Positions 32,092-44,369 of a DNA stretch of 64,000 nucleotides are shown piece after piece. The stretch comes from a virus (taxonomy: Duplodnaviria > Caudoviricetes): positions 1-64,000 of the IMG/VR virus record IMGVR_UViG_3300032030_000026; one strand, written 5' to 3'. Below the pieces are notes generated by a model, which did not search any database, was not told the origin of the DNA, and saw nothing but the letters and a program-made list of their open reading frames with translations. The translations under genes were made by a program, and so were the position numbers. The stretch's first letter is position 1, and each line of letters starts with the position of its first letter.

Positions 32092-32149
32092 AATTCTTAA
32101 ATATTAATCATAAGAAACTTATATATTTCCATACTAAATATCAAAAATC

Positions 32150-33298
32150 ATGCCAATCAAGAAAAGTGAAATCAAGACGGAGCTGGATCAGCTCAAATAT
32201 GACTACATGAGAGCCTATCAACGGATGTGGGAGGCTCGGAAACGCGGGAAGGATCTTAAAGAATATGAAAAATGCCTGGCTGGAATCAAGGAGAAGATGG
32301 ATAAGATCACCGGACTGGCTCCCGGACACCGCACCGTCCATGAACTAGATCGTAGTGAATATAAACAAGAGTTTGTGCCGGATAAAGATTATCTGGATTC
32401 TATGCCGGATCTTCAAAATTCCCAATTCATCGGAACCCCCATCGATTTTGTAGGTATTGAAGGAATGAGGATTCCTTTGAAGATCAAGCAGAAAAAAGGA
32501 GGAACCCAAGAGGTAGTCTGTGATGTCACCGGCACGGTCTCTTTAGATGCGGCCAAACGCGGTATCAATATGAGCCGCATCCTCCGTTCTCTACAGAAGA
32601 CCACTAAAGGGGCCACTACTTTCGACATCAACGATCTGGAAAAAGTACTGAAAGCCTATCAGAAAGACTTAGATACTTTTGATGCTCACATCTTAGTGAA
32701 CTTCCCATACCGCCTTTGGCAGCCTAGTCTGCGCAGCGTGGATGAAGACGGCGAGCCTAACGGAGGCTGGCAATATTATAATGTCACTTTTGACTGTAAC
32801 TTGGATGTCGACGGAGAGTTCAAGAAGATTATCTGGTTTGATTATGTGTATTCTTCCGCCTGCCCCTGTTCTACGGAACTTTCCATGCATGCTCAGGAGA
32901 CCCGCGGAGTATATGCCATCCCACATTCACAAAGAAGCGTAGCTCGTATAGGTATCGAGATGGGTAACACACTAGTCTGGATTGAAGACATCCTGGCTAT
33001 GTGCAAGAAAGCTATCCCTACCGAAACCCAAGTTTTTGTCAAGAGAGAGGACGAGCAGGCCTTTGCGGAGATGAATGGTGCTAATACTATTTTTGTAGAG
33101 GATGCCGTCAGGAAGCTGAGTGTCGTCTTGGAAGACAATGCGGCGGTGATGGATTATAAGATTATTTGTTCTCATTTTGAATCATTACATAAATCCAATG
33201 CTATCTCGGTTATTACTCGTGGTCGGAGAAGAGATGGGGGAATATCTATTTTCAATCATCATGCTCCACTTGGAGAATGGAGATCTTTAAAGGTGTAA
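32150..33298 (+). CDS. folE2: GTP cyclohydrolase IB (FolE2) with N-terminal extension
   Basis: RGINMSR, SACPCS, PHSQRS, VKREDE, FVEDAVR, ESLH. Confidence 0.93.
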   Translation: MPIKKSEIKTELDQLKYDYMRAYQRMWEARKRGKDLKEYEKCLAGIKEKMDKITGLAPGHRTVHELDRSEYKQEFVPDKDYLDSMPDLQNSQFIGTPIDFVGIEGMRIPLKIKQKKGGTQEVVCDVTGTVSLDAAKRGINMSRILRSLQKTTKGATTFDINDLEKVLKAYQKDLDTFDAHILVNFPYRLWQPSLRSVDEDGEPNGGWQYYNVTFDCNLDVDGEFKKIIWFDYVYSSACPCSTELSMHAQETRGVYAIPHSQRSVARIGIEMGNTLVWIEDILAMCKKAIPTETQVFVKREDEQAFAEMNGANTIFVEDAVRKLSVVLEDNAAVMDYKIICSHFESLHKSNAISVITRGRRRDGGISIFNHHAPLGEWRSLKV

Positions 33299-33371: not shown

Positions 33372-34472
33372 ATGAATACATGGGCATATAATTATTTCTA
33401 TAAAACCACATTAATTCCAACCGGACAATTTTATTATGGAATACACAGTACGAATAATATAAATGATGGATACCTGGGGTCCGGTGTTCGTTTGAGAAAA
33501 TTATTTGATCAATATAAGAAAAGTGATTTTTCTAAAGAGATTATAAAATATTTTAATAGTAGGAAGGAACTGTCGGATTATGAAAGAGAATATATAACAT
33601 TTGATATTCTAAATGATCCTTTATGTCTTAATGTATCGTTAGGTGGAGATTTACATGATAATATTGGTGTTACTAAAGGACTAGTAACTGTTAAAGATAA
33701 AGATGGGAATATATTTGATACTTCAATAAATGATCCGCGATATTTATCCGGAGAATTAATTCCACCAACTAGAGGAACAGTCTCAGTCCGTGATAAATCC
33801 GGTAAAGTCATCAAAGTGCCTGTAAACGATCCGCGGTATTTATCCGGAGAACTAGTAATAATAACTAAAGGAAATAAGGGTATGACCGGACGAACTATGG
33901 TTAAAAAAGATGGAATTCAAAAAAGCATATTATTATCCGAACTTGAAGATTATATAAAAAATGGGTGGGTTCGTGGTAATCTTGATAAAGGCCGAACAAG
34001 TCCCACTAAAGGAAGAATATGGATCTATAAAGATGACAGGCAATTGTGTGTATTATCATCGGAACTTGAAAAATATATAAATGAAGGGTGGACAAAAGGA
34101 AGAATTTGCAAATCCATAAAAGATAGAGTTTCGATAACAAAAGATAATAAAAATAAATATGTTGAAATATATGAACTCGGAAAATATTTACAAGAGGGTT
34201 GGCGATTGGGGGCAACATCTAGAAATAAAGGAAAAGTAACTGTTACTGAGGATGGAATTAATTGGTTTGATGTTGAGAATGATGATGAAAGATTTAAATC
34301 TGGTAAATTAAAGTGTCTTTTTCAAATAAAAAATGTTACTAAAGGCTTGAAGTACATTCATAAGGATGGAAAAATAAAAAGAGTTCGTCCGGAATATGTT
34401 GATAAATTTTTACAAGATGGGTGGATTTTAGGTATGGGGTCTAAATCAAAAAAAGAAAAACAAAATAATTAA
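33372..34472 (+). CDS. free-standing GIY-YIG (Seg-like) homing endonuclease
   Basis: YFYKTT...FYYGIHST...DGYLGSG; C-terminal Y...GW..G repeats. Confidence 0.8.
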   Translation: MNTWAYNYFYKTTLIPTGQFYYGIHSTNNINDGYLGSGVRLRKLFDQYKKSDFSKEIIKYFNSRKELSDYEREYITFDILNDPLCLNVSLGGDLHDNIGVTKGLVTVKDKDGNIFDTSINDPRYLSGELIPPTRGTVSVRDKSGKVIKVPVNDPRYLSGELVIITKGNKGMTGRTMVKKDGIQKSILLSELEDYIKNGWVRGNLDKGRTSPTKGRIWIYKDDRQLCVLSSELEKYINEGWTKGRICKSIKDRVSITKDNKNKYVEIYELGKYLQEGWRLGATSRNKGKVTVTEDGINWFDVENDDERFKSGKLKCLFQIKNVTKGLKYIHKDGKIKRVRPEYVDKFLQDGWILGMGSKSKKEKQNN

Positions 34473-34860: not shown

Positions 34861-34954
34861 AATAAAAGCCCCCGGAAGGACCTGCGAGTTCTTTTGCGAG
34901 CATAATAAAAGCCCCCGGAAGGACCTGCGAGTTCTTTTGCGAGCATAATAAAAG
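34861..34954. repeat. 43-bp exact tandem duplication
   Basis: AATAAAAGCCCCCGGAAGGACCTGCGAGTTCTTTTGCGAGCAT x2 + AATAAAAG. Confidence 0.95.
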
Positions 34955-34995
34955 ATCATAGAAGAATCGGAGTGAAAAGGTGAATACTCCGAGAT

Positions 34996-35070
34996 AGGGA
35001 GATCCTCTAATCGGTTTTAGGAGACCGGTCTGATACACCGGCAATCCGAGTTCGAGTCTCGGCCTCCCTA
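34996..35070 (+). tRNA. tRNA-Ile(GAT)
   Basis: Cloverleaf; CCGGT-CTGATAC-ACCGG. Confidence 0.9.
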
Positions 35071-35193
35071 CTATATGACCGGACATTTGGGGTACTATAT
35101 GAAAGTGTCATTATGGCCGGGGAAATCCTCGGCGAGAGGGTGGAAAGGATGAAAAGAGTGTCGAAGTTGCAAATTCGATGACTGCTGAGTAGT

Positions 35194-35280
35194 AACCGTG
35201 AGAAGAGTCTGATCAACCTCCAAAGAGTCGGCCGCCTGTTGGCATGAGTAGTATACCGGGTTCGATTCCCGGCGCGGTTC
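35194..35280 (+). ncRNA. tRNA-like RNA (acceptor stem and T arm, no canonical anticodon arm)
   Basis: AACCGTG/CGCGGTT stem; CCGGG-TTCGATT-CCCGG. Confidence 0.5.
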
Positions 35281-35366
35281 CCTATAGGTTGACATCGAAG
35301 TACAAGGTGCAAGCAATGAGGTGTAATGGGGAGAGCCTCACGTTAAACAAAAACCCTCCCGGCTAT

Positions 35367-35441
35367 GGGCCCGTAGTTCAGCCTGGTAGAACGCCTGCCC
35401 TGCAAGCAGGATGTCATGGGTTCAAATCCCATCGTGGTCCA
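35367..35441 (+). tRNA. tRNA-Ala(TGC), C33, bulged acceptor stem
   Basis: G3-U70; CCTGC-CCTGCAA-GCAGG. Confidence 0.8.
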
Positions 35442-35479
35442 CTGAGGTCCCTCGAGGACTTAACTAAAACTGTTTTAGT

Positions 35480-35595
35480 TGCTTGGTAGCTTAAATAGAA
35501 GCAATTATACCTGATCGGCTGACGAGCCGATAGAGTGGAACTTGTAGAGCTCCGTTAGTGAACGGAAGGTGCGAGTGCGAGTCTCGTCCAAGCCC
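35480..35595 (+). ncRNA. tRNA-like RNA with insertion after the D arm
   Basis: GCTTGG/CCAAGC; variant T loop TGCGAGT; TCCGTT-AGTG-AACGGA. Confidence 0.45.
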
Positions 35596-35599
35596 TAAT

Positions 35600-35673
35600 G
35601 GGTGTATAGTTGAACTGGTTTACAATGCCGGCCTGTCACGCCGGTGGTCCGGGTTCGAGTCCCGGTACACCCG
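35600..35673 (+). tRNA. tRNA-Asp(GTC)
   Basis: CCGGC-CTGTCAC-GCCGG. Confidence 0.92.
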
Positions 35674-35679
35674 CACATC

Positions 35680-35752
35680 GCCGATATAGCTCAGCAGGGA
35701 GAGCATCCGATTCGTATTCGGTGGGTCGAGGGTTCAATTCCTTCTATCGGCT
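35680..35752 (+). tRNA. tRNA-Thr(CGT)
   Basis: CCGA-TTCGTAT-TCGG. Confidence 0.85.
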
Positions 35753-35856
35753 CTATAAGGTGTAAATCAATCTCTTTACCCGCACCTGAAGACGCATATC
35801 TTCTCTGGTATAAAGAAGGGGGCAGAGGTCACGGCATCGGAAAGCGGTGCCAATTT

Positions 35857-35930
35857 GGAAAGGTAGCTCAGTTGGTTAGAGTGCCGGAACGTTAAATCCG
35901 GGGACGTGGGTTCGAATCCCGCTCGATCCG
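35857..35930 (+). ncRNA. tRNA-like RNA with 8-nt anticodon loop and weak acceptor stem
   Basis: Canonical D and T arms; CCGGA-ACGTTAAA-TCCGG. Confidence 0.55.
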
Positions 35931-35944
35931 CTAAAAATAAACAC

Positions 35945-36018
35945 TGCGGAATAGGGAAGAGGTCCATCCCGCAAGGCTCATAACCTTGAAATCGCAGGTT
36001 CGAATCCTGCTTCCGCTA
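35945..36018 (+). tRNA. tRNA-Met(CAT), probable initiator
   Basis: CAAGG-CTCATAA-CCTTG; 1:72 mismatch. Confidence 0.85.
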
Positions 36019-36026
36019 CTAATTAT

Positions 36027-36099
36027 TGGGGATTAGCTCAGTCGGTAGAGCGGTGCACTGTTAATGCAATGGTCGTGAGTTCGAGTCTCACATCCCCAG
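36027..36099 (+). tRNA. tRNA-Asn(GTT)
   Basis: TGCA-CTGTTAA-TGCA. Confidence 0.9.
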
Positions 36100-36179
36100 C
36101 AGCGGCGTGGTCTGAACCGTGACCCGTTCAAAAAGAAAAAATAAAAATTGCGGTGGCGCTCTGGAGAGACAGGGAATTT

Positions 36180-36256
36180 TGGGCTATAGCTCAACGGTAG
36201 AGCACCCGTTTAGACATTAGTGAACGGAAGACGGTGGTTCAATTCCACGAGTCCAA
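36180..36256 (+). ncRNA. tRNA-like RNA with 12-nt anticodon loop
   Basis: Canonical D arm; CCGTT-TAGACATTAGTG-AACGG. Confidence 0.6.
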
Positions 36257-36314
36257 CAGGTCTTGGAGATTGTAGGTTTCCCGCCAAGCGATCTAAAGTG
36301 AGGAACCTTCTAAT

Positions 36315-36399
36315 GGGAGTGCTGCTCAGATGGTGGATGGGCAACGGTCTGTAAAACCGTCACAGAGAAACACAGGAGGTTCGAATCCTCCCACTCCCA
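36315..36399 (+). tRNA. tRNA-Tyr(GTA)
   Basis: ACGGT-CTGTAAA-ACCGT; long variable arm. Confidence 0.9.
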
Positions 36400-36408
36400 C
36401 AATATTTT

Positions 36409-36481
36409 GGAGGAGTAGCTCAGCAGGTAGAGCGAAGGACTGAAGATCCTTGCGTCGGGGGTTCGATTCCCTCCTCCTCCA
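36409..36481 (+). tRNA. tRNA-Phe(GAA)
   Basis: AAGGA-CTGAAGA-TCCTT. Confidence 0.92.
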
Positions 36482-36561
36482 CAGCCGGTAAGTTTTGACA
36501 CAGCTTACTTTTCAAAAAACCGTGGCGTTCGTGAGCCTTTGTGGTGAAAAGCTCTCAATAT

Positions 36562-36633
36562 AGGTCTGTAGTGTAATTGGTAGCACACGTGACTCCAAAT
36601 CTCGGAGTATGGGTTCAAGTCCTGTCGGGCCTG
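36562..36633 (+). tRNA. tRNA-Trp(CCA)
   Basis: CGTGA-CTCCAAA-TCTCG. Confidence 0.88.
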
Positions 36634-36642
36634 CAAAATTAT

Positions 36643-36748
36643 TACGATATGGTGTAATGGTAGCACACTCCTGTAGTGGGACCGGTGACGGCCGGATAAG
36701 AGTCATTCAGATGGCTAAGTAGTATTGGTTCGAATCCTTTTATCGTAT
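36643..36748 (+). ncRNA. 106-nt tRNA-like RNA with expanded anticodon/variable region
   Basis: TACGATA/TATCGTA acceptor; D arm GTGT-AATGGTA-GCAC; T loop TTCGAAT. Confidence 0.6.
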
Positions 36749-36754
36749 CAAAAT

Positions 36755-36827
36755 GGCGCGTTCGTCTAGTTGGTTAGGACGCCAGGTTTTCAACCTGGAA
36801 ACCTTGGATCATACCCGGGAGGCGCTA
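36755..36827 (+). tRNA. tRNA-Glu(TTC), atypical T loop ATCATAC
   Basis: CCAGG-TTTTCAA-CCTGG. Confidence 0.75.
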
Positions 36828-36833
36828 CTAAAT

Positions 36834-36906
36834 GGCCCTGTCTGCTAACAGGTCAGGCAACCGGATTCTCAATCCGGAAATCAGAGTTCGAGTCTCTGTG
36901 GGGCTA
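36834..36906 (+). tRNA. tRNA-Glu(CTC)
   Basis: CCGGA-TTCTCAA-TCCGG. Confidence 0.88.
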
Positions 36907-36917
36907 CTAGATATCTT

Positions 36918-36993
36918 GCCCCGGTAGTTCAATGGATTAGAACAAATGACTACGGATCATCAGATGGGGGTTCGAATCCTCTCTGGGGTACCA
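36918..36993 (+). tRNA. tRNA-Arg(ACG), CCA encoded
   Basis: ATGA-CTACGGA-TCAT. Confidence 0.9.
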
Positions 36994-37012
36994 TTATGAC
37001 TATTATGACTAT

Positions 37013-37084
37013 TGGGATGTAGTGTAATGGCTACCACAGCTGACTCTGGATCAGCTAATCTGAGTTCGAATCTCGGCATCCCAA
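37013..37084 (+). tRNA. tRNA-Gln(CTG)
   Basis: GCTGA-CTCTGGA-TCAGC. Confidence 0.9.
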
Positions 37085-37242
37085 CACGAAAGCCTTGTGA
37101 AATGCGCGCGAGTAGCAAGGATCGTACCAGTCTTGGATAGGCGATGCGAAAGCATCGGATAACAATGATCCGACACCGGATCGTAAGTGCCGGTGGGAGT
37201 TTTCCGGTATAGTTCTCCGGTAATATAAACTATACCATCCAT

Positions 37243-37316
37243 GCCCCGGTAGCCCAACTGGCAGAGGCACATGTTTCAGGTACATGACAGTGACGGTTCG
37301 AATCCGTCTTGGGGCA
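37243..37316 (+). tRNA. tRNA-Leu(CAG), short variable arm
   Basis: CATGT-TTCAGGT-ACATG; variable loop ACAGT. Confidence 0.88.
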
Positions 37317-37327
37317 CTAAAAATAAT

Positions 37328-37401
37328 GCGGTAGTAGCTCAATTGGTAGAGCGTCTGCTTGCCATGCAGAAGGCTTGCGGGTCCGAGTCCCGTCTACCGC
37401 T
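37328..37401 (+). tRNA. tRNA-Gly(GCC), T loop TCCGAGT
   Basis: TCTGC-TTGCCAT-GCAGA. Confidence 0.88.
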
Positions 37402-37405
37402 CTAT

Positions 37406-37479
37406 GCGATAGTAGCTCAGTTTGGCAGAGCGTCTGCCTTCCAAGCAGAAGGTCGTGGGTCCAAGTCCCATCTATCGCT
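37406..37479 (+). tRNA. tRNA-Gly(TCC), T loop TCCAAGT
   Basis: TCTGC-CTTCCAA-GCAGA. Confidence 0.88.
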
Positions 37480-37498
37480 CATATTATCAAGTAGTTAT

Positions 37499-37576
37499 AG
37501 GGTAGTAGTTCAGTTGGTAGAACGCCTGGTTTGGGTCCAGGAGGTTTTTTCGCAGGTTCGAGCCCTGTCTACCCTA
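37499..37576 (+). tRNA. tRNA-Pro(TGG), enlarged variable loop
   Basis: CCTGG-TTTGGGT-CCAGG. Confidence 0.85.
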
Positions 37577-37602
37577 CTGATTATCAATTACTTACAAGAA
37601 AT

Positions 37603-37685
37603 GGAGAGTAAATTCTACGGGGTAGGAGCCAACCTGCTAAGTTGTGCGAGTGTAACAGCTTGTGGATCGAGACCACTGCTCTCCG
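37603..37685 (+). tRNA. tRNA-Ser(GCT), 8/4 fold
   Basis: 8-bp acceptor GGAGAGTA/TGCTCTCC; 4-bp T stem; loop CTGCTAA. Confidence 0.8.
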
Positions 37686-37914
37686 CTTATCGAAATATAC
37701 AGTAAACGGGATAAACACGGGCAGCAGTGTGTTCCTTCGCCAACCATGGGAGGTGGGTAAATAACACCCTGTATATGACCAGCTGTGATAAATTAAAAAG
37801 GGGTTATATTAAAGCTTCCAAACCAGAACCCCTGAGCCCTTAACTGTGTGAGACGTCACCGGGGCGACAGTCCATTGGGTAATTCCATAGGAGCGCTGTT
37901 AGGGAAGCAATTAT

Positions 37915-37986
37915 TGAGCTGTGGTATAATTGGTAACACGTTGGGTTTTGATCCCAAAGTTCTGGATTCGAGTTCCGGCAGCTCAA
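37915..37986 (+). tRNA. tRNA-Gln(TTG)
   Basis: TTGGG-TTTTGAT-CCCAA. Confidence 0.88.
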
Positions 37987-37990
37987 CGAA

Positions 37991-38068
37991 GATGCATTAG
38001 TTCAGGTTCGAGTCCTGACTTTGGCAAGTGTTTGCTGAGGTGCGAGCAATAGGTAGACAGAATGCATC
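37991..38068 (+). ncRNA. circularly permuted tRNA-like (YrlA-type) RNA
   Basis: Order: GATGCATT, T arm, acceptor 3' strand, 7-nt linker, acceptor 5' strand, D region, AATGCATC. Confidence 0.65.
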
Positions 38069-38071
38069 CAT

Positions 38072-38144
38072 GACGGAGTGTCCGAATTGGTTTAGGTGAC
38101 TGGCCGCAACCCAGTCTATGCAGGTTCGAGTCCTGTCTCCGTCT
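38072..38144 (+). tRNA. tRNA-Cys(GCA), C33
   Basis: ACTGG-CCGCAAC-CCAGT; U73. Confidence 0.85.
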
Positions 38145-38167
38145 CTTGAAAAAAATGATTTTCTTTC

Positions 38168-38228
38168 CTTAAGATTCTCTGAAATCGTTTATATAATATC
38201 ACAAGAGAGAAGTTCTTTGACATATTGG
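38168..38228 (+). promoter_or_regulatory. internal phage promoter plus rrn-type boxA
   Basis: CTTAAG-N12-CGTTTATATA, then GTTCTTTGACATATTGG. Confidence 0.65.
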
Positions 38229-38249
38229 AAAGATCATAGATAAGAAAGT

Positions 38250-38359
38250 TACGGGTTGAAATGCCGGTTCGAGCCCGGCCCTGTCCGCCATTAAGAAAGG
38301 CCTTCGGAAAATCATTCGGAGGGTGCGGGTGGGTTGACAAAGGGATAGTCTGGCCCGTA
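38250..38359 (+). ncRNA. circularly permuted tRNA-like (YrlA-type) RNA with internal CCA
   Basis: TACGGGTT/GGCCCGTA terminal stem; T arm GCCGG-TTCGAGC-CCGGC; CCTGTCC-G-CCA; linker; GCGGGTGGG; D arm. Confidence 0.7.
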
Positions 38360-38363
38360 TTTT

Positions 38364-38437
38364 GCCCTGATAGCCCAACTGGCAGAGGCCTGCGGCTTAG
38401 AACCGCAACAGTGCGAGTTCGAATCTCGCTCGGGGCA
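38364..38437 (+). tRNA. tRNA-Leu(TAG), short variable arm
   Basis: TGCGG-CTTAGAA-CCGCA; ACAGT. Confidence 0.88.
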
Positions 38438-38545
38438 CAAAGATCAGCAGACTGAATCAAGAAAAGCATAGAACAACAAAACAAAGAACAGAACGGCTGC
38501 CTCTTTACAAGTTTTCTTGAGCTGAAGGCCGTTTTAGCTGCTGAT

Positions 38546-39116
38546 CCGGATGAGGTGAAATGATATATCCTCGCAAAGCACGGACAGGATCTCGTGAAGG
38601 TCTCAATCTTATTGGAACTAGTAGATTCCGGCTTTGAAAAGGCCACAATAGTGGTAACACCGTATGGTATTATAATACACTAGTTCTGTGTAATCTGCTC
38701 GAAACACTTATATAGAAGGAGAGAGCTGGAATCTTGGGTGCCAAACATAGACGAAAGACCGAGTGATGCAAGATGGAGCCGAAGCGATAAATTATATAAA
38801 GAGGCTATCCGGTAAAGAACAATACTTGTCCCTGACAATAATATAGTCAAACAAAGATTTGATGTGCCTCAAAAAATGTCTCCGTGTTATTTGCACAGGT
38901 ACTTCTAAAAACCTCGGTTTTTGGATGATTAAATTTCACATTTTGAGAGAGTGTTATAAAAAAGGGAAAGCCGTGACGGATGGATATTCGATAGGTGTTT
39001 ATAAACACTGAAAGGAAGTATTGTCGCTTCGCCATCCACGGATGTAGCATCATGTCAGAACAAGTAAGTCTGGTGAGGTCCCTTATCCTTGCATGGCTGA
39101 AAGTTCATGTTCTTTA
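38546..39116 (+). ncRNA. large ornate ncRNA, probable ROOL RNA
   Basis: About 570 nt between tRNAs, no credible ORF; long-range helices CCGGAT/ATCCGG, ACAATACTT/AAGTATTGT, TAAAGAAC/GTTCTTTA; AGAACAAGTAAG..TGGTG segment matches ROOL as I recall it. Confidence 0.65.
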
Positions 39117-39122
39117 TTTGAT

Positions 39123-39196
39123 ATCCCGGTAGCCCAACCGGCAGAGGCACAGCGTTGAGGGCGCTGACAGTGGCAGTTCGAATCTGCCTCGGGATA
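39123..39196 (+). tRNA. tRNA-Leu(GAG), short variable arm
   Basis: CAGCG-TTGAGGG-CGCTG; ACAGT. Confidence 0.88.
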
Positions 39197-39276
39197 CTAA
39201 AAAAACCCATAGATATTACTTCTTTAGACTAACGTGTTAAAAAGCGGAACTGGTAAGAAAGTGAGAATGGGTATAA

Positions 39277-39490
39277 AAAGTCAAGAACATTCCACCAAGT
39301 AGCGTTCGGGGTAAGTGTCAGGCAAATGTCGACTTCTTCCTGGTGCGGTGTCTCGGAGCCAAAGAGCTGCCGTCAGCCCGATGAACGGTGTTGGTTATCG
39401 TGAGGTGCCATAAGGTGCAACGCAACAGTGCGGTTTGCGAAGAGCATATAACCAACGCACAGTCCGTAGCTCGTAAATTTTCTTGGCTTT
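39277..39490 (+). ncRNA. unassigned structured RNA, about 210 nt
   Basis: Closing helix AAAGTCAAGAA/TTCTTGGCTTT; internal GTGTTGGTTAT/ATAACCAACGC. Confidence 0.45.
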
Positions 39491-39494
39491 CTAT

Positions 39495-39570
39495 GGGGAA
39501 GTAGCTTAGCGGTCCAGAGCGACAATGGGTGTGACGCCCGGAGACATTGGTTCAAATCCAGTCTTCCCTG
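39495..39570 (+). ncRNA. tRNA-like RNA with distorted anticodon arm
   Basis: GGGGAAG/CTTCCCT; D and T arms intact; GGGTG-TGA-CGCCC. Confidence 0.6.
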
Positions 39571-39668
39571 CGAGAACAGCTGCTGCAACAGCTTAGTAAC
39601 TGGCGATGTCTGATATTTCAATGTGCCTTTGCAGGGGTTAGACAGAGAAGGGATCAGGTATCGAAAAA

Positions 39669-39738
39669 TTCTTATTCGTACAATCGGTTAGGACACCGGC
39701 GATGGTCGGAAATGCTGGTTCGAGTCCAGCATAAGAGT
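39669..39738 (+). ncRNA. tRNA-like RNA with a 4-nt loop replacing the anticodon loop
   Basis: TTCTTAT/ATAAGAG; CCGGC-GATG-GTCGG; perfect T arm. Confidence 0.65.
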
Positions 39739-39743
39739 CAAAT

Positions 39744-39827
39744 AGAGAGTTAACTGCGGCGGCCTGCAGGCCGGTTTCGAAAACCGTGCGAGTCCTATGG
39801 CTTGGGGATCGACACCTCAGCTCTCTG
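39744..39827 (+). tRNA. tRNA-Ser(CGA), 8/4 fold
   Basis: AGAGAGTT/AGCTCTCT; loop TTCGAAA; T loop ATCGACA. Confidence 0.82.
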
Positions 39828-39835
39828 CAAACAAT

Positions 39836-39922
39836 GGAGAGCTAAGCCGGCGGGGCTGGCCGCTGTTTGGAAGACAGTCGGAGTCTGGAAGATGGCTTGG
39901 GGATCGAGACCTCAGTTCTCCG
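39836..39922 (+). tRNA. tRNA-Ser(GGA), 8/4 fold
   Basis: GGAGAGCT/AGTTCTCC; loop TTGGAAG. Confidence 0.82.
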
Positions 39923-39987
39923 CAAACTGTGGAACTATGGAAATGTCATTCATCCACGGGTCGTCCCCAAAACAAGAATGGCATATT

Positions 39988-40071
39988 GGAGAGTTAACTG
40001 CAGCGGCCTGCAGACCGGTCTTGAAAACCGTGGGAGTATAACAGCTTGGGGATCGACACCTCAGCTCTCCG
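39988..40071 (+). tRNA. tRNA-Ser(TGA), 8/4 fold
   Basis: GGAGAGTT/AGCTCTCC; loop CTTGAAA. Confidence 0.82.
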
Positions 40072-40324
40072 CAAAGGCTTCAGAAATGAAGTTAGGTGTC
40101 CTTGGGGAGACTTATAACCTTCCGACTGTGGGAAGCCCCCACTACAGCGTACCGAGGAACGTGGACATCCTCCATTGATGTAATTGCGCAATAAGTCAGT
40201 GGAGACTTCCAAGCAAATAATCCGCACGAAAGTGCGTCAATATATTGGGCATAATGGAAAGTAGTGTGCCGTACCGCAATTCGGGGCGCGAAACCGAGTT
40301 CATCTCGGTTGTCCACCAATTTTT

Positions 40325-40398
40325 GGGCTAGTGGCGCAATTGGTTAGCGCAGATGTCTTATACACATAAGGTTGGGGGTTCAAGTCCCTCCTAGCCCA
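40325..40398 (+). tRNA. tRNA-Ile(TAT)
   Basis: ATGT-CTTATAC-ACAT; Ile-type body, A73. Confidence 0.85.
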
Positions 40399-40515
40399 CT
40401 ATGAGAAGTGTATATAAACCTCAGGCGTGCGCCTATGGCTCGCAAAATCATAGGTAGTTATCGTTTATACGTAAAACAGCGGAAGGAGCGGCCCAACCGT
40501 AAGAGGCTGCGATAT

Positions 40516-40589
40516 GGTGTTAGTAGCTCAGTTGGTAGAGTGCTGGATTGTGGTTCCAGTGGTCGCAGGTTCGATCCCTGTCTAACACA
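40516..40589 (+). tRNA. tRNA-His(GTG)
   Basis: CTGGA-TTGTGGT-TCCAG; encoded G-1 opposite A73. Confidence 0.88.
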
Positions 40590-40754
40590 CTAAAGGATTG
40601 GTTGATCCGAGGTTCAAGAAGGCTTGCTTGAGATGGCTACACAGCAGGAAATGCTTGAGATGGAAACTGTGAAGGGACAGCCATAAGTCGTGAAGTACAG
40701 TTAGATGTGGAGGTCTGCTGAAAGAAGGTGACCGTGTAGGACAATCCAATCTAT

Positions 40755-40828
40755 AGCTCGATAGCCCAACCGGCAGAGGCGACAGATTCAAAACCTGTAC
40801 AGTGTGAGTTCGAATCTCACTCGGGCTA
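40755..40828 (+). tRNA. tRNA-Leu(CAA), short variable arm
   Basis: ACAG(A)-TTCAAAA-(C)CTGT; ACAGT. Confidence 0.85.
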
Positions 40829-40838
40829 CAATATATTT

Positions 40839-40967
40839 TGGGATGTAGTCGAATTGGTAGAGATGCCCGGGATGGTCCGGGAGGTTTGCAAATAATTTCG
40901 CGATGAATAGCAAACGGCACTCATTGGCCTGAGTGTCATAATGAAGGTTCGAATCCTTCCATCCCAG
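40839..40967 (+). ncRNA. 129-nt tRNA-like RNA with two-hairpin variable region
   Basis: TGGGATG/CATCCCA; CCCGG-GATGGT-CCGGG; perfect T arm. Confidence 0.65.
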
Positions 40968-41089
40968 CTAGTATCCGGCAACCTATATGAGCCGGGAATT
41001 CGAGAATATCTCGTTAATAGGTCAAGGCCATGCCCCTTGCTAGTGGGGGTTGGAGCTCATACGAAAATGTGAGAATCACTAGCGATTTT

Positions 41090-41163
41090 GCCGATGTAGC
41101 GGAGCTGGCTTCATGCGCCGCTCTCATAAGGCGGAGACGGTGGTTCGAGTCCACCCATCGGCA
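41090..41163 (+). tRNA. tRNA-Met(CAT), elongator type
   Basis: CCGCT-CTCATAA-GGCGG; paired 1:72. Confidence 0.85.
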
Positions 41164-41181
41164 CGAAAGCGAAAAAAGCTC

Positions 41182-41253
41182 CGGCGTGTAGCTCAGTAGG
41201 CAGAGCGGGCCAAGGTACTGGCCGGGTCCTCGGTTCGAGTCCGAGTGCGTCAA
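41182..41253 (+). ncRNA. tRNA-like RNA with 6-nt anticodon loop
   Basis: GGCCA-AGGTAC-TGGCC; C1:A72 mismatch; canonical D and T arms. Confidence 0.6.
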
Positions 41254-41312
41254 AGAGTTTGCAATTACTTCGCATACGGTACCTAGCTGAGGTTTTGCAC
41301 GTTTTCTCGCGA

Positions 41313-41386
41313 GCGGAGTTAGCTCAGTTGGAAGCAGCATCCGGCTTACATCCGGAGGGTCGGGGGTTCGAGTCCCTCATTCCGCA
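41313..41386 (+). tRNA. tRNA-Val(TAC)
   Basis: TCCGG-CTTACAT-CCGGA. Confidence 0.85.
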
Positions 41387-41534
41387 CTAAAAAATAAACC
41401 TTGTGATCCCAGAGGGGTTGGTCACTTCCAGCTGGTAGGTTATTTTTCTCTTTCATACGACTGTCAAGGGGTATTATCCATCGTGCAATGACAGTCCAAC
41501 ATAAAGAGTTTTCTTAAAGGTGAAGTGACACTTT

Positions 41535-41608
41535 GGCGCTGTGGGCAAACTGGTTAAGCCGCCACTCTTTCAAGGTGGAAACTACGGGTTCGAGCCCCGT
41601 CGGCGCTA
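41535..41608 (+). tRNA. tRNA-Glu(TTC), second copy
   Basis: CCACT-CTTTCAA-GGTGG. Confidence 0.85.
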
Positions 41609-41759
41609 CTGCGGAAGCAAATCAGTAATGGAGTTATGGGGGTCTGAGTGAAAGCTCAGAATGGAGTGGCTACTCCACGTTAAATATTAAAAGTAGCCTG
41701 GTGGACTTGCCATCGGGCGGGAACACAGAAAGCCGGCGCTGCAAAGACCGGCACACTAA

Positions 41760-41831
41760 GCCGGTGTAACTCAATGGTAGAGTATCGCACTTGTAATGCG
41801 GCGGTTGTGGGTTCGACTCCCTCCATAGGCA
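41760..41831 (+). tRNA. tRNA-Thr(TGT)
   Basis: TCGCA-CTTGTAA-TGCGG. Confidence 0.82.
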
Positions 41832-41850
41832 CTCATAAAACGTTATAATT

Positions 41851-42231
41851 ATGGAAAAGAAGATAAATGATCGTAGATATACAATTCTCGGAATTCACCG
41901 AAACGGTACATTATATGGATGGGCAGAGAATTCATTTTCCTTCTCCGCATCCGAGACGCACACTCGTGTATGGGGCGCGGAATATAAAGAATTCGGCGGT
42001 CGAAAATATTGGAAGCCGAACAGAAACCAGTCCAACTGGAACTATCTCAAAAAAGTTGCTGATGATCTGACTGCAAAGAAGTTTATGAACTGCGTCTGGA
42101 GAGTGTACCGAGTCGGCAGCAAGCACTGCCCAGCTGACATAGACTTCAGAACTTGCGATCTGATGAAACATGGTAAAATAAAATACGACAAATATCTGGC
42201 GAGAAACCACAGATTCTCGCCGAAACAATAA
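41851..42231 (+). CDS. basic hypothetical protein within the tRNA island
   Basis: 126-aa ORF filling the gap between RNA genes. Confidence 0.65.
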   Translation: MEKKINDRRYTILGIHRNGTLYGWAENSFSFSASETHTRVWGAEYKEFGGRKYWKPNRNQSNWNYLKKVADDLTAKKFMNCVWRVYRVGSKHCPADIDFRTCDLMKHGKIKYDKYLARNHRFSPKQ

Positions 42232-42494
42232 CGGGCGACCCGGATAATGGGGATTGAACAGGCGGATTAGCTACCGCTTACGCAATGGCGCTTCTGAGAC
42301 GGATCTCAGAGACAAGCCGTAAAGTGCGGAACCGAAAGTCCAATGAGCTGTAGACAATCGGCGCAAGCACCAGAACTCAGGCGATGACAGTTGCAATAGA
42401 GCTCAATAAAGAGCTGCCAAGTCTGAGTCATTCTCTGACTGGACAGGCCAGTCCAAGAAGAAGCGTTCAGGAGGTTCGACTCCTCCTCGCCCGA
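42232..42494 (+). ncRNA. 263-nt RNA framed by a tRNA acceptor stem and T arm
   Basis: CGGGCGA/TCGCCCG-A; GGAGG-TTCGACT-CCTCC; TGAAC/GTTCA helix encloses several hairpins. Confidence 0.65.
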
Positions 42495-42501
42495 CTAAGT
42501 T

Positions 42502-42586
42502 GGCTGAGTGGCGAAATTGGTAGTACGCTTCAGACTTAAAATCTGATGTCCGTAAGGACGTGCGGGTTCAAGTCCCGCCTCAGCTA
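42502..42586 (+). tRNA. tRNA-Leu(TAA), long variable arm
   Basis: TCAGA-CTTAAAA-TCTGA. Confidence 0.9.
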
Positions 42587-42659
42587 CAAACAGTGGACAT
42601 TTGGAGGGAAATTGTTAAAACGTTGTGATTCGCTCATGGAAATGTCCTAACAACGTTAC

Positions 42660-42732
42660 GCGTCAGTAGCTCAGTAGGTAGAGCACATCCCTTTTAAGGA
42701 TGGGGTCCCGGGTTCGAGTCCCGGCTGACGCA
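42660..42732 (+). tRNA. tRNA-Lys(TTT)
   Basis: CATCC-CTTTTAA-GGATG. Confidence 0.92.
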
Positions 42733-42739
42733 CTTATAA

Positions 42740-42822
42740 GGAGAGCTAAATCGGCGGGGCCGATCGCTGTTTGGAAGACAGTTGGAAGGTAACACTTTGG
42801 GGATCGAGACCTCAGTTCTCCG
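42740..42822 (+). tRNA. tRNA-Ser(GGA), 8/4 fold, second copy
   Basis: GGAGAGCT/AGTTCTCC; loop TTGGAAG. Confidence 0.82.
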
Positions 42823-42827
42823 CACAA

Positions 42828-42900
42828 GCCCTTGTAGCGCAATTGGTAGAGCATCTGTTTTGTAGTCAGAGGGTTGGGGGTTCAAGTCCTCTCAGGGGCT
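42828..42900 (+). tRNA. tRNA-Thr(TGT), second copy
   Basis: TCTG(T)-TTTGTAG-(T)CAGA. Confidence 0.82.
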
Positions 42901-42917
42901 CTTATTATAATTATATT

Positions 42918-42993
42918 GGGAGTTTAGCTCAGCTGGTTCAGTAGCGTCTGCCTTACAAGCAGAAGGTCGTTGGTTCGAATCCAACAACTCCCA
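42918..42993 (+). tRNA. tRNA-Val(TAC), second copy
   Basis: TCTGC-CTTACAA-GCAGA. Confidence 0.9.
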
Positions 42994-42998
42994 CAAAG

Positions 42999-43264
42999 CT
43001 GGCGTCGTTGACGCTCCGGTGAAAGGATGTTTGGACGAGGGGTTCGATTCCCTCTACCTCCACTATTTCTTAGCTGACCAACCAAGATGTTGGAACAGTT
43101 ACGGTGGCGGAAACTTAATATGAGATCCGTCACTTGCTTATGGGGGTAATTGGTTTTGACAGCATTTGAGTAAGAAGAGAAGAGATGCCGGTGAGTGAGA
43201 ATAAATCACAAAACAACTGTTCGTCTCGCTGCTTAAGCCTAGGGCTCACAACAAGCGAGGGTCC
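42999..43264 (+). ncRNA. ssrA: circularly permuted (two-piece) tmRNA
   Basis: T arm and TACCTCC-A (43055-43062) precede GGGGGTA-ATTGGTTTTGACAGC (from 43142); G3-U70; tag frame ending VRLAA-stop (43207-43236). Confidence 0.85.
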
Positions 43265-43293
43265 GGGGAGAACCAAATCTCCCCATTTCTTTT
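43265..43293 (+). terminator. intrinsic terminator after tmRNA
   Basis: GGGGAGA-ACCAAA-TCTCCCC followed by a T-rich tail. Confidence 0.7.
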
Positions 43294-43341
43294 GTAAATA
43301 TGGAAGATTGATTTCTTATTTTTAGGTAAATAAAACATATT

Positions 43342-43736
43342 ATGGCATTTATAACTAAGAATGAGGAAGAATTCAGACAAGGTCAAGAATTTTACAAAGA
43401 TATTATTCCGCTGTTCGTAAACGTATCGTAAACGTAAAGACCAACCATGAGACTATATACGGAATATCATGTCCACAGATTAATGATGTGCAAGAAATGA
43501 TCATAAATGCACTAAAAGAGGTTACCGTGCCGTTTGAAGGTTCTATAAGTGTCGAGCTAGGCTTGCTTTCCGATAGTTCTAAGTTCGTCACAGCAACAAA
43601 GATCAATTATGATCAATGGATCCAGATTAGAAATTACAATATAGAAATTGAATTAGAGGTTGCACATGTTCTAAGCAATGAATTCTTTGCGGGATTGTGC
43701 AATAAATATCTAAAATTAATAAACAAGCTGTCGTAG
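43342..43736 (+). pseudogene. frameshifted hypothetical gene (or 1-nt sequencing error)
   Basis: ATG 43342 frame stops near 43431; another frame runs open from about 43407 to 43736. Confidence 0.45.
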
Positions 43737-43800
43737 CTCAGTTGGTAGTAGAGCGTCCTTGGTAAGGAAGAGGTCGCCAGTTCAAGTCCGGCCGACTGCT
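43727..43800 (+). tRNA. tRNA-Thr(GGT)
   Basis: TCC-TTGGTAA-GGA; several stem mismatches. Confidence 0.75.
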
Positions 43801-43807
43801 CTTGATT

Positions 43808-43881
43808 GTCTCGGTGATGCAATTGGTAGACATGCTTCTCTTAAACAGAAGATCTTGAGAGTTCGAATCTCTCTCGGGACA
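43808..43881 (+). tRNA. tRNA-Leu(TAA), short variable arm
   Basis: CTTCT-CTTAAAC-AGAAG; 5-nt variable loop. Confidence 0.85.
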
Positions 43882-43898
43882 CGAAATAAATATAAGTT

Positions 43899-44168
43899 AT
43901 GAAATCAATATTAGAATCTATTAATGAATCCGAAAAGAAATATGATAATTTCCTGAATCTTCCTCCTATAACTGAACTCGGAGACGGTGAGTATGATTGC
44001 GCTGTTTGGGGACATAGTGTTGTTTGTGATGGTAAGAAATATTATTCGGAAATTGGTATAAAGAACATTTATCCTATCAAGATGAAGATAATCATCAAAG
44101 ACGGCAATGTTCGATTTGGGGATTCCGATAATCTTCAAAGAGCGGAATTGAAAAAACTTTTCGATTAA
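43899..44168 (+). CDS. hypothetical protein
   Basis: MKSILESINES start resembles the Glu-ending leaders. Confidence 0.65.
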   Translation: MKSILESINESEKKYDNFLNLPPITELGDGEYDCAVWGHSVVCDGKKYYSEIGIKNIYPIKMKIIIKDGNVRFGDSDNLQRAELKKLFD

Positions 44169-44176
44169 TCATAATT

Positions 44177-44249
44177 GTTCTTATAGCTCAATGGATCAGA
44201 GCACGGGCCTCCGGAGCCCGGGATCCGGGTTCGAATCCCGGTAGGAGCT
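44177..44249 (+). tRNA. tRNA-Arg(CCG)
   Basis: CGGGC-CTCCGGA-GCCCG. Confidence 0.88.
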
Positions 44250-44276
44250 CTATATGACATCTATGATCTTTTCATC

Positions 44277-44350: not shown

Positions 44351-44369
44351 CTAAAAATTAAGAATTATT

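What the first reader, a model, noticed from the sequence alone, without database searches (positions are those of the whole stretch)
35194..41253. About ten tRNA-shaped RNAs with intact elbows but non-decoding anticodon arms
Seen: 35194, 35480, 35857 (8-nt loop), 36180 (12-nt loop), 36643, 39495, 39669 (4-nt loop), 40839, 41182 (6-nt loop) and a weaker case at 40246-40318. Acceptor stems and T arms are mostly well paired, and most keep the encoded C74 seen in the true tRNAs, while damage concentrates in the anticodon arm. Two share CCGTT...AGTGAACGGAAG. Inference: not random decay but selected mimics, such as decoys for nucleases or uncharged-tRNA sensors, or RNase P/Z processing punctuation.
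Basis: partly seen in the sequence, partly recalled or inferred. Interest (0 to 1): 0.78.

Follow-up and report, generated by a model that had tools for sequence, protein, structure and literature searches.

The report
Non-decoding tRNA look-alikes in phage array
A sheep-rumen phage carries, among about 40 working tRNA genes, some ten tRNA-shaped genes that cannot read codons yet are kept in shape in related phages, the same unexplained kind of RNA long known from phages T4 and T5.

Summary
The window is part of a 115-kb uncultivated phage contig. It holds a 9.4-kb one-strand array of 36 canonical tRNAs, four Sec-like serine tRNAs and a permuted tmRNA. The ten listed elements are at the stated coordinates with the stated loop sizes. 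Seven (C, D, E, F, G, I, J) pass Rfam's tRNA threshold but lack a 7-nt anticodon loop. A, B and H keep only an acceptor helix and a T arm. Eight of ten have counterparts in up to four related rumen-phage contigs. In E, F, G, I and J, 4-7 base pairs changed on both sides and still pair, as in the canonical tRNAs. The odd loop sizes (4, 4, 6, 6 nt) and extra hairpins are retained, so these five, and probably B and H, are selected structures and not decay. C (8-nt loop, two acceptor mismatches) and D have no counterpart and may be dying genes, and the window's E and H copies carry fresh damage. Intron readings are inconsistent between orthologs. Function is unknown. The closest known are T5 RNA1-3 and T4 RNAC/RNAD, so this is a rich new example of a known kind. 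This scan has noted the same kind on other phage DNA.

The parts
35194..35280 (+). A: acceptor helix (7/7) and canonical T arm around a 55-nt non-cloverleaf core. The conserved domain begins upstream, at about 35137.
   Evidence: acceptor and T arm; no Rfam tRNA hit. Homologs in G1, G6 (L182), L181 and L183 share the core and T arm, but the 3' acceptor strand pairs only in the window and G6.
35480..35595 (+). B: 6-bp acceptor helix, D-like hairpin without GG, a hairpin with a GACG loop, a 5-bp hairpin with a 4-nt loop, and a T-like arm with G at position 55.
   Evidence: No Rfam tRNA hit. Counterparts in G2 (91%) and G6 (87%), with 2 pairs changed on both sides in the GACG-loop hairpin and G55 kept in all three; the CCGTT/AACGG hairpin is replaced by another sequence in G6.
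35857..35930 (+). C: cloverleaf with an 8-nt anticodon loop and two mismatches in the acceptor stem; probably a decaying or lineage-specific copy.
   Evidence: ARAGORN '???'; Rfam 45.4 bits with non-pairs marked in the acceptor stem. No counterpart with the same loop; the nearest sequence is a tRNA-Lys(UUU) in L183, 81%.
36179..36256 (+). D: cloverleaf with a 12-nt anticodon loop. It shares its anticodon stem and variable region with B.
   Evidence: Rfam 36.6 bits; shared 12-mer; no counterpart in any relative.
36643..36748 (+). E: acceptor stem, D arm, three hairpins (loops of 6, 4-8 and 6 nt) and T arm.
   Evidence: Rfam 36.8 bits. Counterparts in G1 and G3: 5 pairs changed on both sides, 95% of cells paired, slid controls 0-1. 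The window copy has a weakened T stem.
39495..39570 (+). F: cloverleaf whose anticodon arm is a short hairpin with a 3-5-nt loop. It directly follows a conserved 215-nt non-coding element.
   Evidence: Rfam 42.5 bits. Counterparts in G1 (95-96%) and G3: 5 pairs changed on both sides in acceptor, T and middle helices; the middle region is non-canonical in both lineages.
39669..39738 (+). G: cloverleaf with a 5-bp anticodon stem closed by a 4-nt loop.
   Evidence: Rfam 33.9 bits. Counterpart in G6 (78%) with the same 4-nt loop size and 4 pairs changed on both sides; slid controls 0.
40246..40316 (+). H: acceptor helix, internal hairpin and T arm, with no D arm. The window copy has a 5-nt T loop.
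   Evidence: No Rfam hit. Four copies in three phages (window, G6, G2 twice), 89-92% identical. The relatives have a canonical 7-nt T loop, and the T stem has 2 pairs changed on both sides.
40839..40967 (+). I: acceptor stem, D arm, a 6-bp hairpin with a 4-nt loop, two further hairpins in the variable region, and T arm.
   Evidence: Rfam 38.1 bits. Counterparts in G1 and G6: 7 pairs changed on both sides; 100% of cells paired in the window-G1 comparison (slid controls 0), with 2 unpaired cells in the third hairpin of the three-way alignment. The third hairpin is replaced by a different hairpin at the same place.
41182..41253 (+). J: cloverleaf with a 6-nt anticodon loop and a C1/A72 mismatch.
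   Evidence: ARAGORN '???'; Rfam 37.1 bits. A counterpart at the same position (Met - J - Val) in G3 also has a 6-nt loop; 6 pairs changed on both sides.
42378..42494 (+).
   Evidence: no Rfam tRNA hit; 99% identical in G1, where the surrounding block is about 89-90% identical.

Best explanation
Most of these elements are genes for non-decoding, tRNA-shaped small RNAs derived from tRNAs. They belong to the same kind as the 'tRNA-like stable RNAs' RNA1-3 of phage T5 and RNAC/RNAD of T4. They are transcribed with the phage tRNAs on one strand. They keep the acceptor helix, T arm, usually the D/T elbow and the N73-C74 end, which are the parts that RNase P, the 3'-end machinery and the CCA enzyme recognise. 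They carry a capped stem or extra hairpins where the anticodon loop should be. Shown: the shapes, their conservation and the compensatory changes. Inferred: that they are cut out and completed like tRNAs and persist as stable L-shaped RNAs. My preferred mechanism (about 0.35) is that they occupy a protein that recognises the tRNA body or acceptor end and not the anticodon. Such a protein could be a host tRNA-end-modifying toxin, a quality-control nuclease or a processing enzyme. A minority (C, D, and the damaged window copies of E and H) are decaying members of a fast-turning-over array.
For: Seven of ten pass the Rfam tRNA threshold but none has a 7-nt anticodon loop. Eight of ten have counterparts in related contigs G1, G2, G3, G6, L181 or L183. 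Pairs changed on both sides with pairing kept: E 5, I 7, J 6, G 4, F 5; slid-partner controls give 0-2. Canonical tRNAs of the same anticodon compared between the same genomes give 4.2-5.6 such pairs at 70-77% identity. The aberrant features are shared by diverged counterparts: a 4-nt loop in G, a 6-nt loop in J, a 4-nt loop and two extra hairpins in I, and three hairpins in E. None is a recent copy of a canonical tRNA. C74 is shared with true tRNAs, and gaps of 5-17 nt to neighbouring tRNAs are typical. Metatranscriptome contigs identical to the window span every element unspliced, with very uneven depth along the array. The T5 record annotates RNA1-3 as tRNA-like stable RNAs in its tRNA cluster, and they fold into the same layout.
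Against: There are only 2-5 sequences per family, so covariation is counted and not statistically tested, and the structures were derived from the same sequences. Any two tRNA-derived sequences share a cloverleaf, so some 'compensatory' differences could predate loss of decoding. Presence is patchy: each element is found in only 2-5 of about 8 related arrays. C and D have no counterpart. The window copies of E and H are damaged compared with relatives. E and I are less similar to G1 (72-74%) than the spacers are (89%), which shows mosaic exchange and not simple vertical descent. No mature ends, CCA addition, stability or binding partner has been observed; the RNA evidence consists of contigs from one study that cannot show ends.
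Confidence: 0.6

Rival explanations
1. They are processing punctuation only. The acceptor/T-arm modules give RNase P and the 3'-end enzymes cut sites that separate neighbouring tRNAs and the other conserved non-coding RNAs of the array, and the excised look-alikes have no function of their own.
For: The most constant parts are those that RNase P and RNase Z need. Several elements abut other conserved non-tRNA segments: F follows the 215-nt element 39277-39489, and A ends a conserved 5' domain. A, H and K keep only a helix and a T arm.
Against: Compensatory changes and retained hairpins occur in the middle parts too: E's third hairpin, I's first hairpin and B's hairpin with the GACG loop. Full anticodon stems are kept in G, I and J although punctuation does not need them. 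Most elements sit 5-17 nt from a canonical tRNA that already supplies cut sites.
Confidence: 0.15
2. They are neutral relics: dead tRNA genes left by duplication, recombination at T arms and homing-endonuclease traffic in a fast-changing array.
For: C has two acceptor mismatches and an 8-nt loop and no counterpart. D has no counterpart. Orphan T arms exist. A's 3' acceptor strand differs between relatives, with a homology break inside the T arm. The window's E and H are damaged compared with relatives. Array content differs greatly between relatives.
Against: E, F, G, I and J have 4-7 double-sided pair changes with 94-100% pairing, as many as working tRNAs have. The same aberrant loop sizes persist at 62-78% identity. 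K and F are more conserved than the spacers around them.
Confidence: 0.12
3. They are working tRNAs in disguise. The oversized ones (E, I, D) carry introns or expansions, like the 'enigmatic introns' of Lak megaphage tRNAs, that are removed or tolerated. Those with 8-nt and 6-nt loops (C, J) decode by frameshifting.
For: Lak megaphages have oversized tRNAs read as intron-bearing (PMC6784885). ARAGORN with introns allowed assigns anticodons to D, E and I. The G1 and G3 copies of E can be read as tRNA-Lys(CUU) with a 28-29-nt intron. Relatives hold other structurally odd but apparently decoding tRNAs, such as a 96-nt Tyr-like one in G1.
Against: The intron readings give different anticodons for counterparts: E reads Arg in the window against Lys in G1 and G3, and I reads Thr, Arg or a CUA suppressor (labelled Pyl). 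The local hairpins that such readings would break are supported by double-sided changes. RNA contigs span E and I unspliced. G, I, F and B have 3-5-nt loops that cannot present an anticodon. Every amino acid is already served by a canonical or Sec-like tRNA in the array.
Confidence: 0.08

Closest known systems
Phage T5 RNA1, RNA2 ('tRNA-like stable RNA with unknown functions') and RNA3 ('putative tRNA-like RNA'), NC_005859
   Same: They lie inside the phage tRNA gene cluster on the tRNA strand, between tRNAs and homing-endonuclease genes. RNA1 and RNA2 fold as acceptor helix, D-like arm, a multi-hairpin middle and a canonical T arm, like E and I. RNA3 is tRNA-sized with a 6-nt loop, like G and J.
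   Different: No sequence similarity beyond the T arm. The T5 RNAs are annotated in the record as stable RNAs, whereas the window's are seen only in metatranscriptome contigs. The window has about ten against three in T5.
Phage T4 RNAC and RNAD (species 1 and 2 RNAs)
   Same: Small phage-encoded RNAs whose function is still unknown (PMC9697503). From my own knowledge, they lie in the T4 tRNA gene cluster.
Oversized tRNAs with 'enigmatic introns' in Lak megaphages (PMC6784885)
   Same: Gut phages with large tRNA sets, oversized tRNA-like genes whose inserts are conserved, and highly expressed intergenic regions.
   Different: The Lak inserts were read as introns in identifiable tRNAs (Phe, Gly, Thr, Tyr). 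Here no consistent anticodon can be recovered for E and I, and many elements are of normal length with capped stems.
YrlA / bacterial Y RNAs (RF02553; PMC4201824)
   Same: Non-coding RNAs with a tRNA-like module that bind a protein and do not decode.
   Different: The best Rfam YrlA scores are 19-31 bits against a threshold of 69, and these matches span two adjacent tRNAs. No Ro/TROVE gene is present in the five contigs. In YrlA the tRNA-like module is internal to a Ro-binding stem (from my own knowledge).
Engineered tRNA scaffolds for recombinant RNA (from my own knowledge)
   Same: The anticodon arm is replaced by other hairpins, while the acceptor, T and D parts secure processing and stability.
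   Different: Those are artificial. Whether the natural elements carry 'cargo' is not known.

Membership tests
Canonical decoding tRNA (Rfam RF00005) | Covariance-model score at or above the gathering score (29 bits) | tested here: met
   Met by C, D, E, F, G, I and J (33.9-45.4 bits). Not met by A, B, H and K.
Canonical decoding tRNA (Rfam RF00005) | 5-bp anticodon stem closed by a 7-nt loop that presents three anticodon bases | tested here: not met
   Loops of 8 (C), 12 (D), 4 (G), 6 (J), 4 (I) and 3-5 (F) nt; E has 48 nt in place of 13.
Phage tRNA-like stable RNAs (T5 RNA1-3 / T4 RNAC, RNAD kind) | Encoded within the phage tRNA cluster on the tRNA strand, with an acceptor helix and T arm but no usable anticodon loop | tested here: met
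   for the window; for T5.
Phage tRNA-like stable RNAs (T5 RNA1-3 / T4 RNAC, RNAD kind) | Accumulates as a discrete stable RNA in infected cells | not testable with these tools
   Only assembled metatranscriptome contigs from one sheep-gut study are available. They cover the elements as parts of 0.5-1.5-kb pieces and cannot show ends.
Phage tRNA-like stable RNAs (T5 RNA1-3 / T4 RNAC, RNAD kind) | Sequence homology to the T5 RNAs | tested here: not met
   blastn against the T5 tRNA region gives only 13-19-nt T-arm matches. The likeness is of kind and layout, not of family descent.
Intron-bearing tRNA (Lak-type reading) | Removing the insert restores a canonical anticodon arm with the same anticodon in counterparts | tested here: not met
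   ARAGORN with introns allowed reads E as Arg in the window and Lys in G1 and G3. It reads I as Thr, Arg or a CUA suppressor (labelled Pyl). Local hairpins are supported by double-sided changes.
Intron-bearing tRNA (Lak-type reading) | A spliced form is present in RNA | tested here: inconclusive
   Contigs span E and I unspliced, and no joint removes the inserts. Contigs drop rare forms and mature tRNA-sized RNAs.
YrlA / Y RNA | Rfam RF02553 score at or above 69 bits, and a Ro (TROVE) gene in the genome | tested here: not met
   Best score 30.8 bits, across two adjacent tRNAs. No TROVE match in G000-G004, which are 21-57% complete.
tRNA pseudogene (neutral decay) | No conservation of the defect in relatives; substitutions break pairs as often as they keep them | tested here: not met
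   Not met for E, F, G, I and J (94-100% of cells paired, 4-7 double-sided changes). It cannot be excluded for C and D, which have no counterparts.

The most novel reading that the evidence does not exclude
The array encodes a diversified panel of tRNA-body decoys. Each is a capped, anticodon-less L-shape with a normal acceptor end. Together they soak up host immune effectors or stress toxins that act on the tRNA acceptor end or body (for example enzymes that modify the 3' CCA end, or tRNA quality-control nucleases). This would protect the phage's and host's real tRNAs, and the extra hairpins of E, I and B would tune specificity.
Probability: 0.15. Interest if true: 0.85.

Novelty: new member of a known kind. 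Interest (0 to 1): 0.5.

Why it matters
Small tRNA-like RNAs of unknown function have been known in the tRNA clusters of T4 and T5 for decades. This rumen-phage lineage offers about ten of them in one array, with several related arrays to compare. It shows that the acceptor, T and often the anticodon stems are maintained by compensatory change while the anticodon loop is lost. That argues for a function that needs the tRNA body but not decoding. It also gives concrete targets (E, G, I, J) for processing, binding and competition assays. For annotation, such elements should not be counted as tRNAs, pseudogenes or intron-bearing tRNAs by default.

Tried and rejected
1. The 17-mer shared by B and D gave only chance hits, in coding DNA of unrelated viral contigs, when searched in IMG/VR.
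2. The upstream flank gene 33372-34472 is a mobile, multi-copy family. Its relatives do not carry the array, and G1 lacks the gene.
3. megablast and blastn against 50,697 phage records found only generic tRNA similarity.
4. Relatives of the FolE2-like protein in IMG/VR, other than G1, have no tRNA arrays.
5. A 26-nt pattern from E found only G1 and G3 in IMG/VR.
6. The metagenome scan with a 20-mer from the 215-nt element gave three useful loci and three that look like chance hits.
7. There is no TROVE/Ro gene and no CCA-adding-enzyme head domain in the five contigs, which are fragments.
8. Weak Rfam hits to YrlA, DUF2693 RNA, mascRNA and plastid UTR families are far below threshold and are explained by T arms or adjacent tRNAs.
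9. ARAGORN intron mode gave inconsistent anticodons.
10. Read laying returned contigs only, so starts, ends, CCA tails and levels could not be read, and uncovered parts are not evidence.
11. For B, the consensus fold offers a helix that competes with the T-like arm, and no variable column decides between them.
12. A possible second permuted tmRNA-like pairing between the orphan T arm at 38263-38290 and a complementary 7-mer about 300 nt downstream was considered. I dropped it because it lacks the G3-U70 pair and A73 of tmRNA (own reading).
13. Complex prediction, structure prediction and the protein atlas were not used, because no protein partner is in hand.

Full report
WHAT THE WINDOW IS. 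The window is the first 64 kb of a 115-kb IMG/VR virus record, estimated 57% complete. From 34996 to 44351, all on the + strand, lies an RNA gene array. ARAGORN genes, two of them with impossible anticodons. Rfam adds further tRNA-model hits and a permuted tmRNA at 43002-43236. ARAGORN calls no serine tRNA. Four class-II genes at 37604-37688, 39745-39829, 39836-39925 and 39988-40071 carry the serine anticodons GCU, CGA, GGA and UGA (read). The last aligns to the tRNA-Sec model with a long acceptor stem, a 6-bp D stem and a 4-nt D loop (43 bits). Serine tRNAs of this Sec-like (8/4) build are already reported from phages and rumen bacteria (PMC5389517). The genes upstream encode QueD, QueC, a radical-SAM protein and FolE2.

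THE OBSERVATION. I label the ten elements A (35194), B (35480), C (35857), D (36180), E (36643), F (39495), G (39669), H (40246), I (40839) and J (41182).
- Scanned in isolation against Rfam, seven pass the tRNA gathering score of 29: C 45.4, F 42.5, I 38.1, J 37.1, E 36.8, D 36.6 and G 33.9 bits. A, B and H give no hit.
- I has a 58-nt insert in the variable region, and its 'anticodon' hairpin is a 6-bp stem with a 4-nt loop. E has 48 nt where the model expects 13.
- An unbiased scan for T arms followed by an acceptor-stem search recovered A, D, F, G, I and J. It also found an eleventh element, K (42378-42494), and two orphan T arms.
- C74 is encoded in 35 of 36 canonical genes and C75 in none. 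Nine or ten of the eleven look-alikes also have C74 (p about 3e-5).
- The 12-mer shared by B and D occurs twice in the window against 0.18 expected.
- Three qualifications apply. A and H have no D arm. B has no GG in its D-like loop and a G at T-loop position 55. C has two acceptor mismatches, and the window copies of E and H have a weakened T stem and a shortened T loop.
- Because the elements were recognised by acceptor and T arm, the concentration of damage in the anticodon arm is partly a matter of how they were picked.

FINDING RELATIVES. Nothing close exists in the phage records. The T arm of the Sec-like serine tRNAs, used as a pattern, brought in IMG/VR contigs with related arrays:
- G1 is syntenic with the window, 75-92% identical in nucleotides.
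- G2 and G3 are more distant, and G4 is the most distant.
- A 20-mer from a conserved non-coding element found a further short contig, L181.
- Homologs of the FolE2-like protein led to L182 (called G6 here, a syntenic array of 33 tRNAs) and L183.

CONSERVATION, ELEMENT BY ELEMENT.
- E (window, G1, G3): five pairs changed on both sides with pairing kept. These lie in the acceptor stem, the T stem and the third internal hairpin. 95% of cells are paired, and slid-partner controls give 0-1.
- I (window, G1, G6): seven such pairs. Three are in the acceptor stem and two in the T stem, and one is the closing pair of the 4-nt-loop hairpin. The seventh falls in the poorly aligned third-hairpin region. 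In the window-G1 comparison 100% of cells are paired; the three-way alignment has two unpaired cells in that hairpin. The third hairpin is a different sequence at the same place in G1 and G6.
- J (window, G3): same position between tRNA-Met and tRNA-Val, both copies with a 6-nt loop, and six pairs changed on both sides.
- G (window, G6): the same 4-nt loop size and an identical anticodon stem, with four pairs changed on both sides in the acceptor and T stems.
- F (window, G1, G3): five such pairs. The middle region is non-canonical in both lineages but differs between them.
- B (window, G2, G6): two such pairs in the hairpin with the GACG loop, and the unusual G55 kept in all three. The hairpin that B shares with D is replaced in G6. 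The fold of B's 3' half is ambiguous.
- H: four copies in three phages. The relatives have a normal 7-nt T loop, so the window copy carries a fresh 2-nt deletion.
- A: five homologs share a core that starts about 57 nt upstream and ends in the T arm. The 3' acceptor strand pairs only in the window and G6. Homology breaks inside the T arm, as expected if arrays recombine there.
- K is 99% identical in G1.
- C and D have no counterpart. C is nearest to a tRNA-Lys(UUU) of L183.
- None of the elements is a recent copy of a canonical tRNA in any of the arrays.

CONTROL AND CAVEATS. Canonical tRNAs with the same anticodon, compared between the window and G1, G3 or G6, are 70-77% identical and show 4.2-5.6 double-sided pair changes per pair. 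The look-alikes therefore behave like working tRNAs in their stems. Several caveats remain.
- Each family has only 2-5 sequences.
- The structures were derived from the same sequences.
- Any two tRNA-derived sequences share a cloverleaf.
- Between the window and G1, E and I (72-74% identical) are less alike than the aligned spacers (89%), so units are exchanged between lineages and do not simply descend vertically.
- The shared, derived oddities argue that the loss of decoding came before the compensatory changes. These are the loop sizes in G and J, the number and placement of hairpins in E and I, and G55 in B.

RNA. Two metatranscriptomic runs of one sheep-gut sample (one study) hold 88% and 59% of the array's sampled words. 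Contigs identical to the window span 34925-36455, 36575-37894, 39381-40017, 40043-40641, 40612-41148 and 41119-42461. Every element therefore occurs unspliced within longer RNA-library contigs. Depth varies from about 20 to about 3000 along the array, which is hard to explain by DNA carry-over alone. Contigs cannot show mature ends, CCA tails or abundance of tRNA-sized species, and this sample may be the source of the window itself.

ALTERNATIVES. With introns allowed, ARAGORN assigns anticodons to D, E and I, but these differ between counterparts. E reads Arg in the window and Lys in G1 and G3. I reads Thr, Arg or a CUA suppressor (labelled Pyl). The local hairpins that such readings would break are supported by double-sided changes. 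Decoding by frameshifting through the 8-nt or 6-nt loops of C and J cannot be excluded but has no support. Pure decay fits C and D and the fresh lesions in the window's E and H. It does not fit the conserved families.

COMPARISON WITH WHAT IS KNOWN.
- The T5 record NC_005859 annotates RNA1 and RNA2 as 'tRNA-like stable RNA with unknown functions' and RNA3 as 'putative tRNA-like RNA'. They lie within its tRNA cluster, beside other stable RNAs and HNH homing endonucleases.
- Folded, RNA1 and RNA2 show an acceptor helix, a D-like arm, a multi-hairpin middle and a canonical T arm, which is the layout of E and I. RNA3 is a 73-nt hairpin-capped form like G and J.
- There is no sequence similarity beyond the T arm.
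- T4 RNAC and RNAD are still described as RNAs of unknown function (PMC9697503).
- Lak megaphages have oversized tRNAs read as carrying 'enigmatic introns', and highly expressed intergenic regions (PMC6784885).
- YrlA is excluded by score and by the absence of a Ro gene.
- Earlier notes of this scan list the same kind of element in many other phage genomes. I used them only as a lead to the T5 annotation, which I then checked myself.

MECHANISM. Three things are shown: tRNA-shaped genes that cannot present an anticodon, maintenance of their helices by compensatory change, and co-orientation and tight packing with tRNAs with a shared C74. Inferred is that they are excised by RNase P and the tRNA 3'-end machinery, completed to CCA and accumulate as stable L-shaped RNAs. 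Speculative (about 0.35) is that they act by occupying a protein that reads the tRNA body or acceptor end. Three points bear on this:
- Anticodon nucleases are unlikely targets, because the loop they recognise is missing.
- Pure punctuation does not explain constraint on the middle hairpins.
- Retention of full anticodon stems capped by short loops in G, I and J suggests that the whole L-shape matters, not only the top half.

VERDICT. The inference that these are not decay is right for most elements and wrong or undecided for C and D. The proposed functions remain untested. This is a new and unusually rich member of a known but unexplained kind.

Noticed in passing
37604-37688, 39745-39829, 39836-39925, 39988-40071 (+): Four serine tRNAs (anticodons GCU, CGA, GGA, UGA) with a Sec-like build: a long acceptor stem, a 6-bp D stem with a 4-nt loop, and A at T-loop position 54. 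ARAGORN and Rfam's tRNA model miss them, and they are the only Ser tRNAs in the array. One scores 43 bits on the tRNA-Sec model (threshold 47). They match the (8/4) tRNA-Ser reported from phages and rumen bacteria (PMC5389517).
   Followed up: partly
43002-43236 (+): A permuted (two-piece type) tmRNA gene inside the phage tRNA array (Rfam RF04321, 57.5 bits). It is conserved in G1 (94.5%) and G3 (86%).
   Followed up: no
39277-39489 (+): A roughly 215-nt non-coding element, 83-92% identical in G2, G3 and L181 and partly present in G1, with no Rfam match. Different tRNA-type genes follow it in different phages: F in the window, and a serine tRNA in G2 and L181.
   Followed up: partly
37753-39337 (+), peak 38704-39020: In the sheep-gut metatranscriptome contigs this tRNA-poor stretch has 10-50 times the depth of the rest of the array (up to about 3000 against 50-100). 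An abundant non-tRNA RNA may be made here. This recalls the highly expressed intergenic regions reported for Lak phages.
   Followed up: no
38002-38018 and 38263-38290 (+): Two orphan T arms without a 5' acceptor partner. The second is followed by a 7-nt strand and GCCA, and is 91% identical in G1 and G6.
   Followed up: partly
33372-34472 (+): The gene just upstream of the array belongs to a large, multi-copy family; some members carry a GIY-YIG domain. It is absent at this site in the close relative G1, so it behaves like a mobile homing-endonuclease-type insertion. L181 has a GIY-YIG-like ORF (by my reading of its translation) inside its array.
   Followed up: partly
25903-33298 (+): Genes for QueD, QueC, a radical-SAM (QueE-like) protein and FolE2, a set for 7-deazaguanine synthesis, lie directly upstream of the array. 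In relatives QueC carries an intein, and an IF1-like gene is nearby.
   Followed up: no
L142:3841-3910, L143:6898-6969 and 4579-4649, L144:4908-4980, L182:8466-8532 and 9963-10034: The relatives G1, G2, G3 and G6 carry suppressor-type tRNAs (anticodon CUA; G2 also UUA). None was detected in the window's array, so stop-codon use may differ within this lineage.
   Followed up: no
35367-35440 (+): The tRNA-Ala(UGC) called by ARAGORN and Rfam (52.9 bits) has two non-pairs in its acceptor stem as I read it, so not every 'true' tRNA here is flawless.
   Followed up: no
L182:7849-8040; L142:3584-3679; L143:2509-2631 and 2939-3053; L144:5731-5854 and 5860-5980; L145:2150-2253: The relatives hold further oversized tRNA-framed genes (96-190 nt). 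Four of them share a hairpin followed by a CAGCAA-type motif. One in G1 and L181 looks like a D-armless tRNA-Tyr(GUA) with a very long variable arm.
   Followed up: partly
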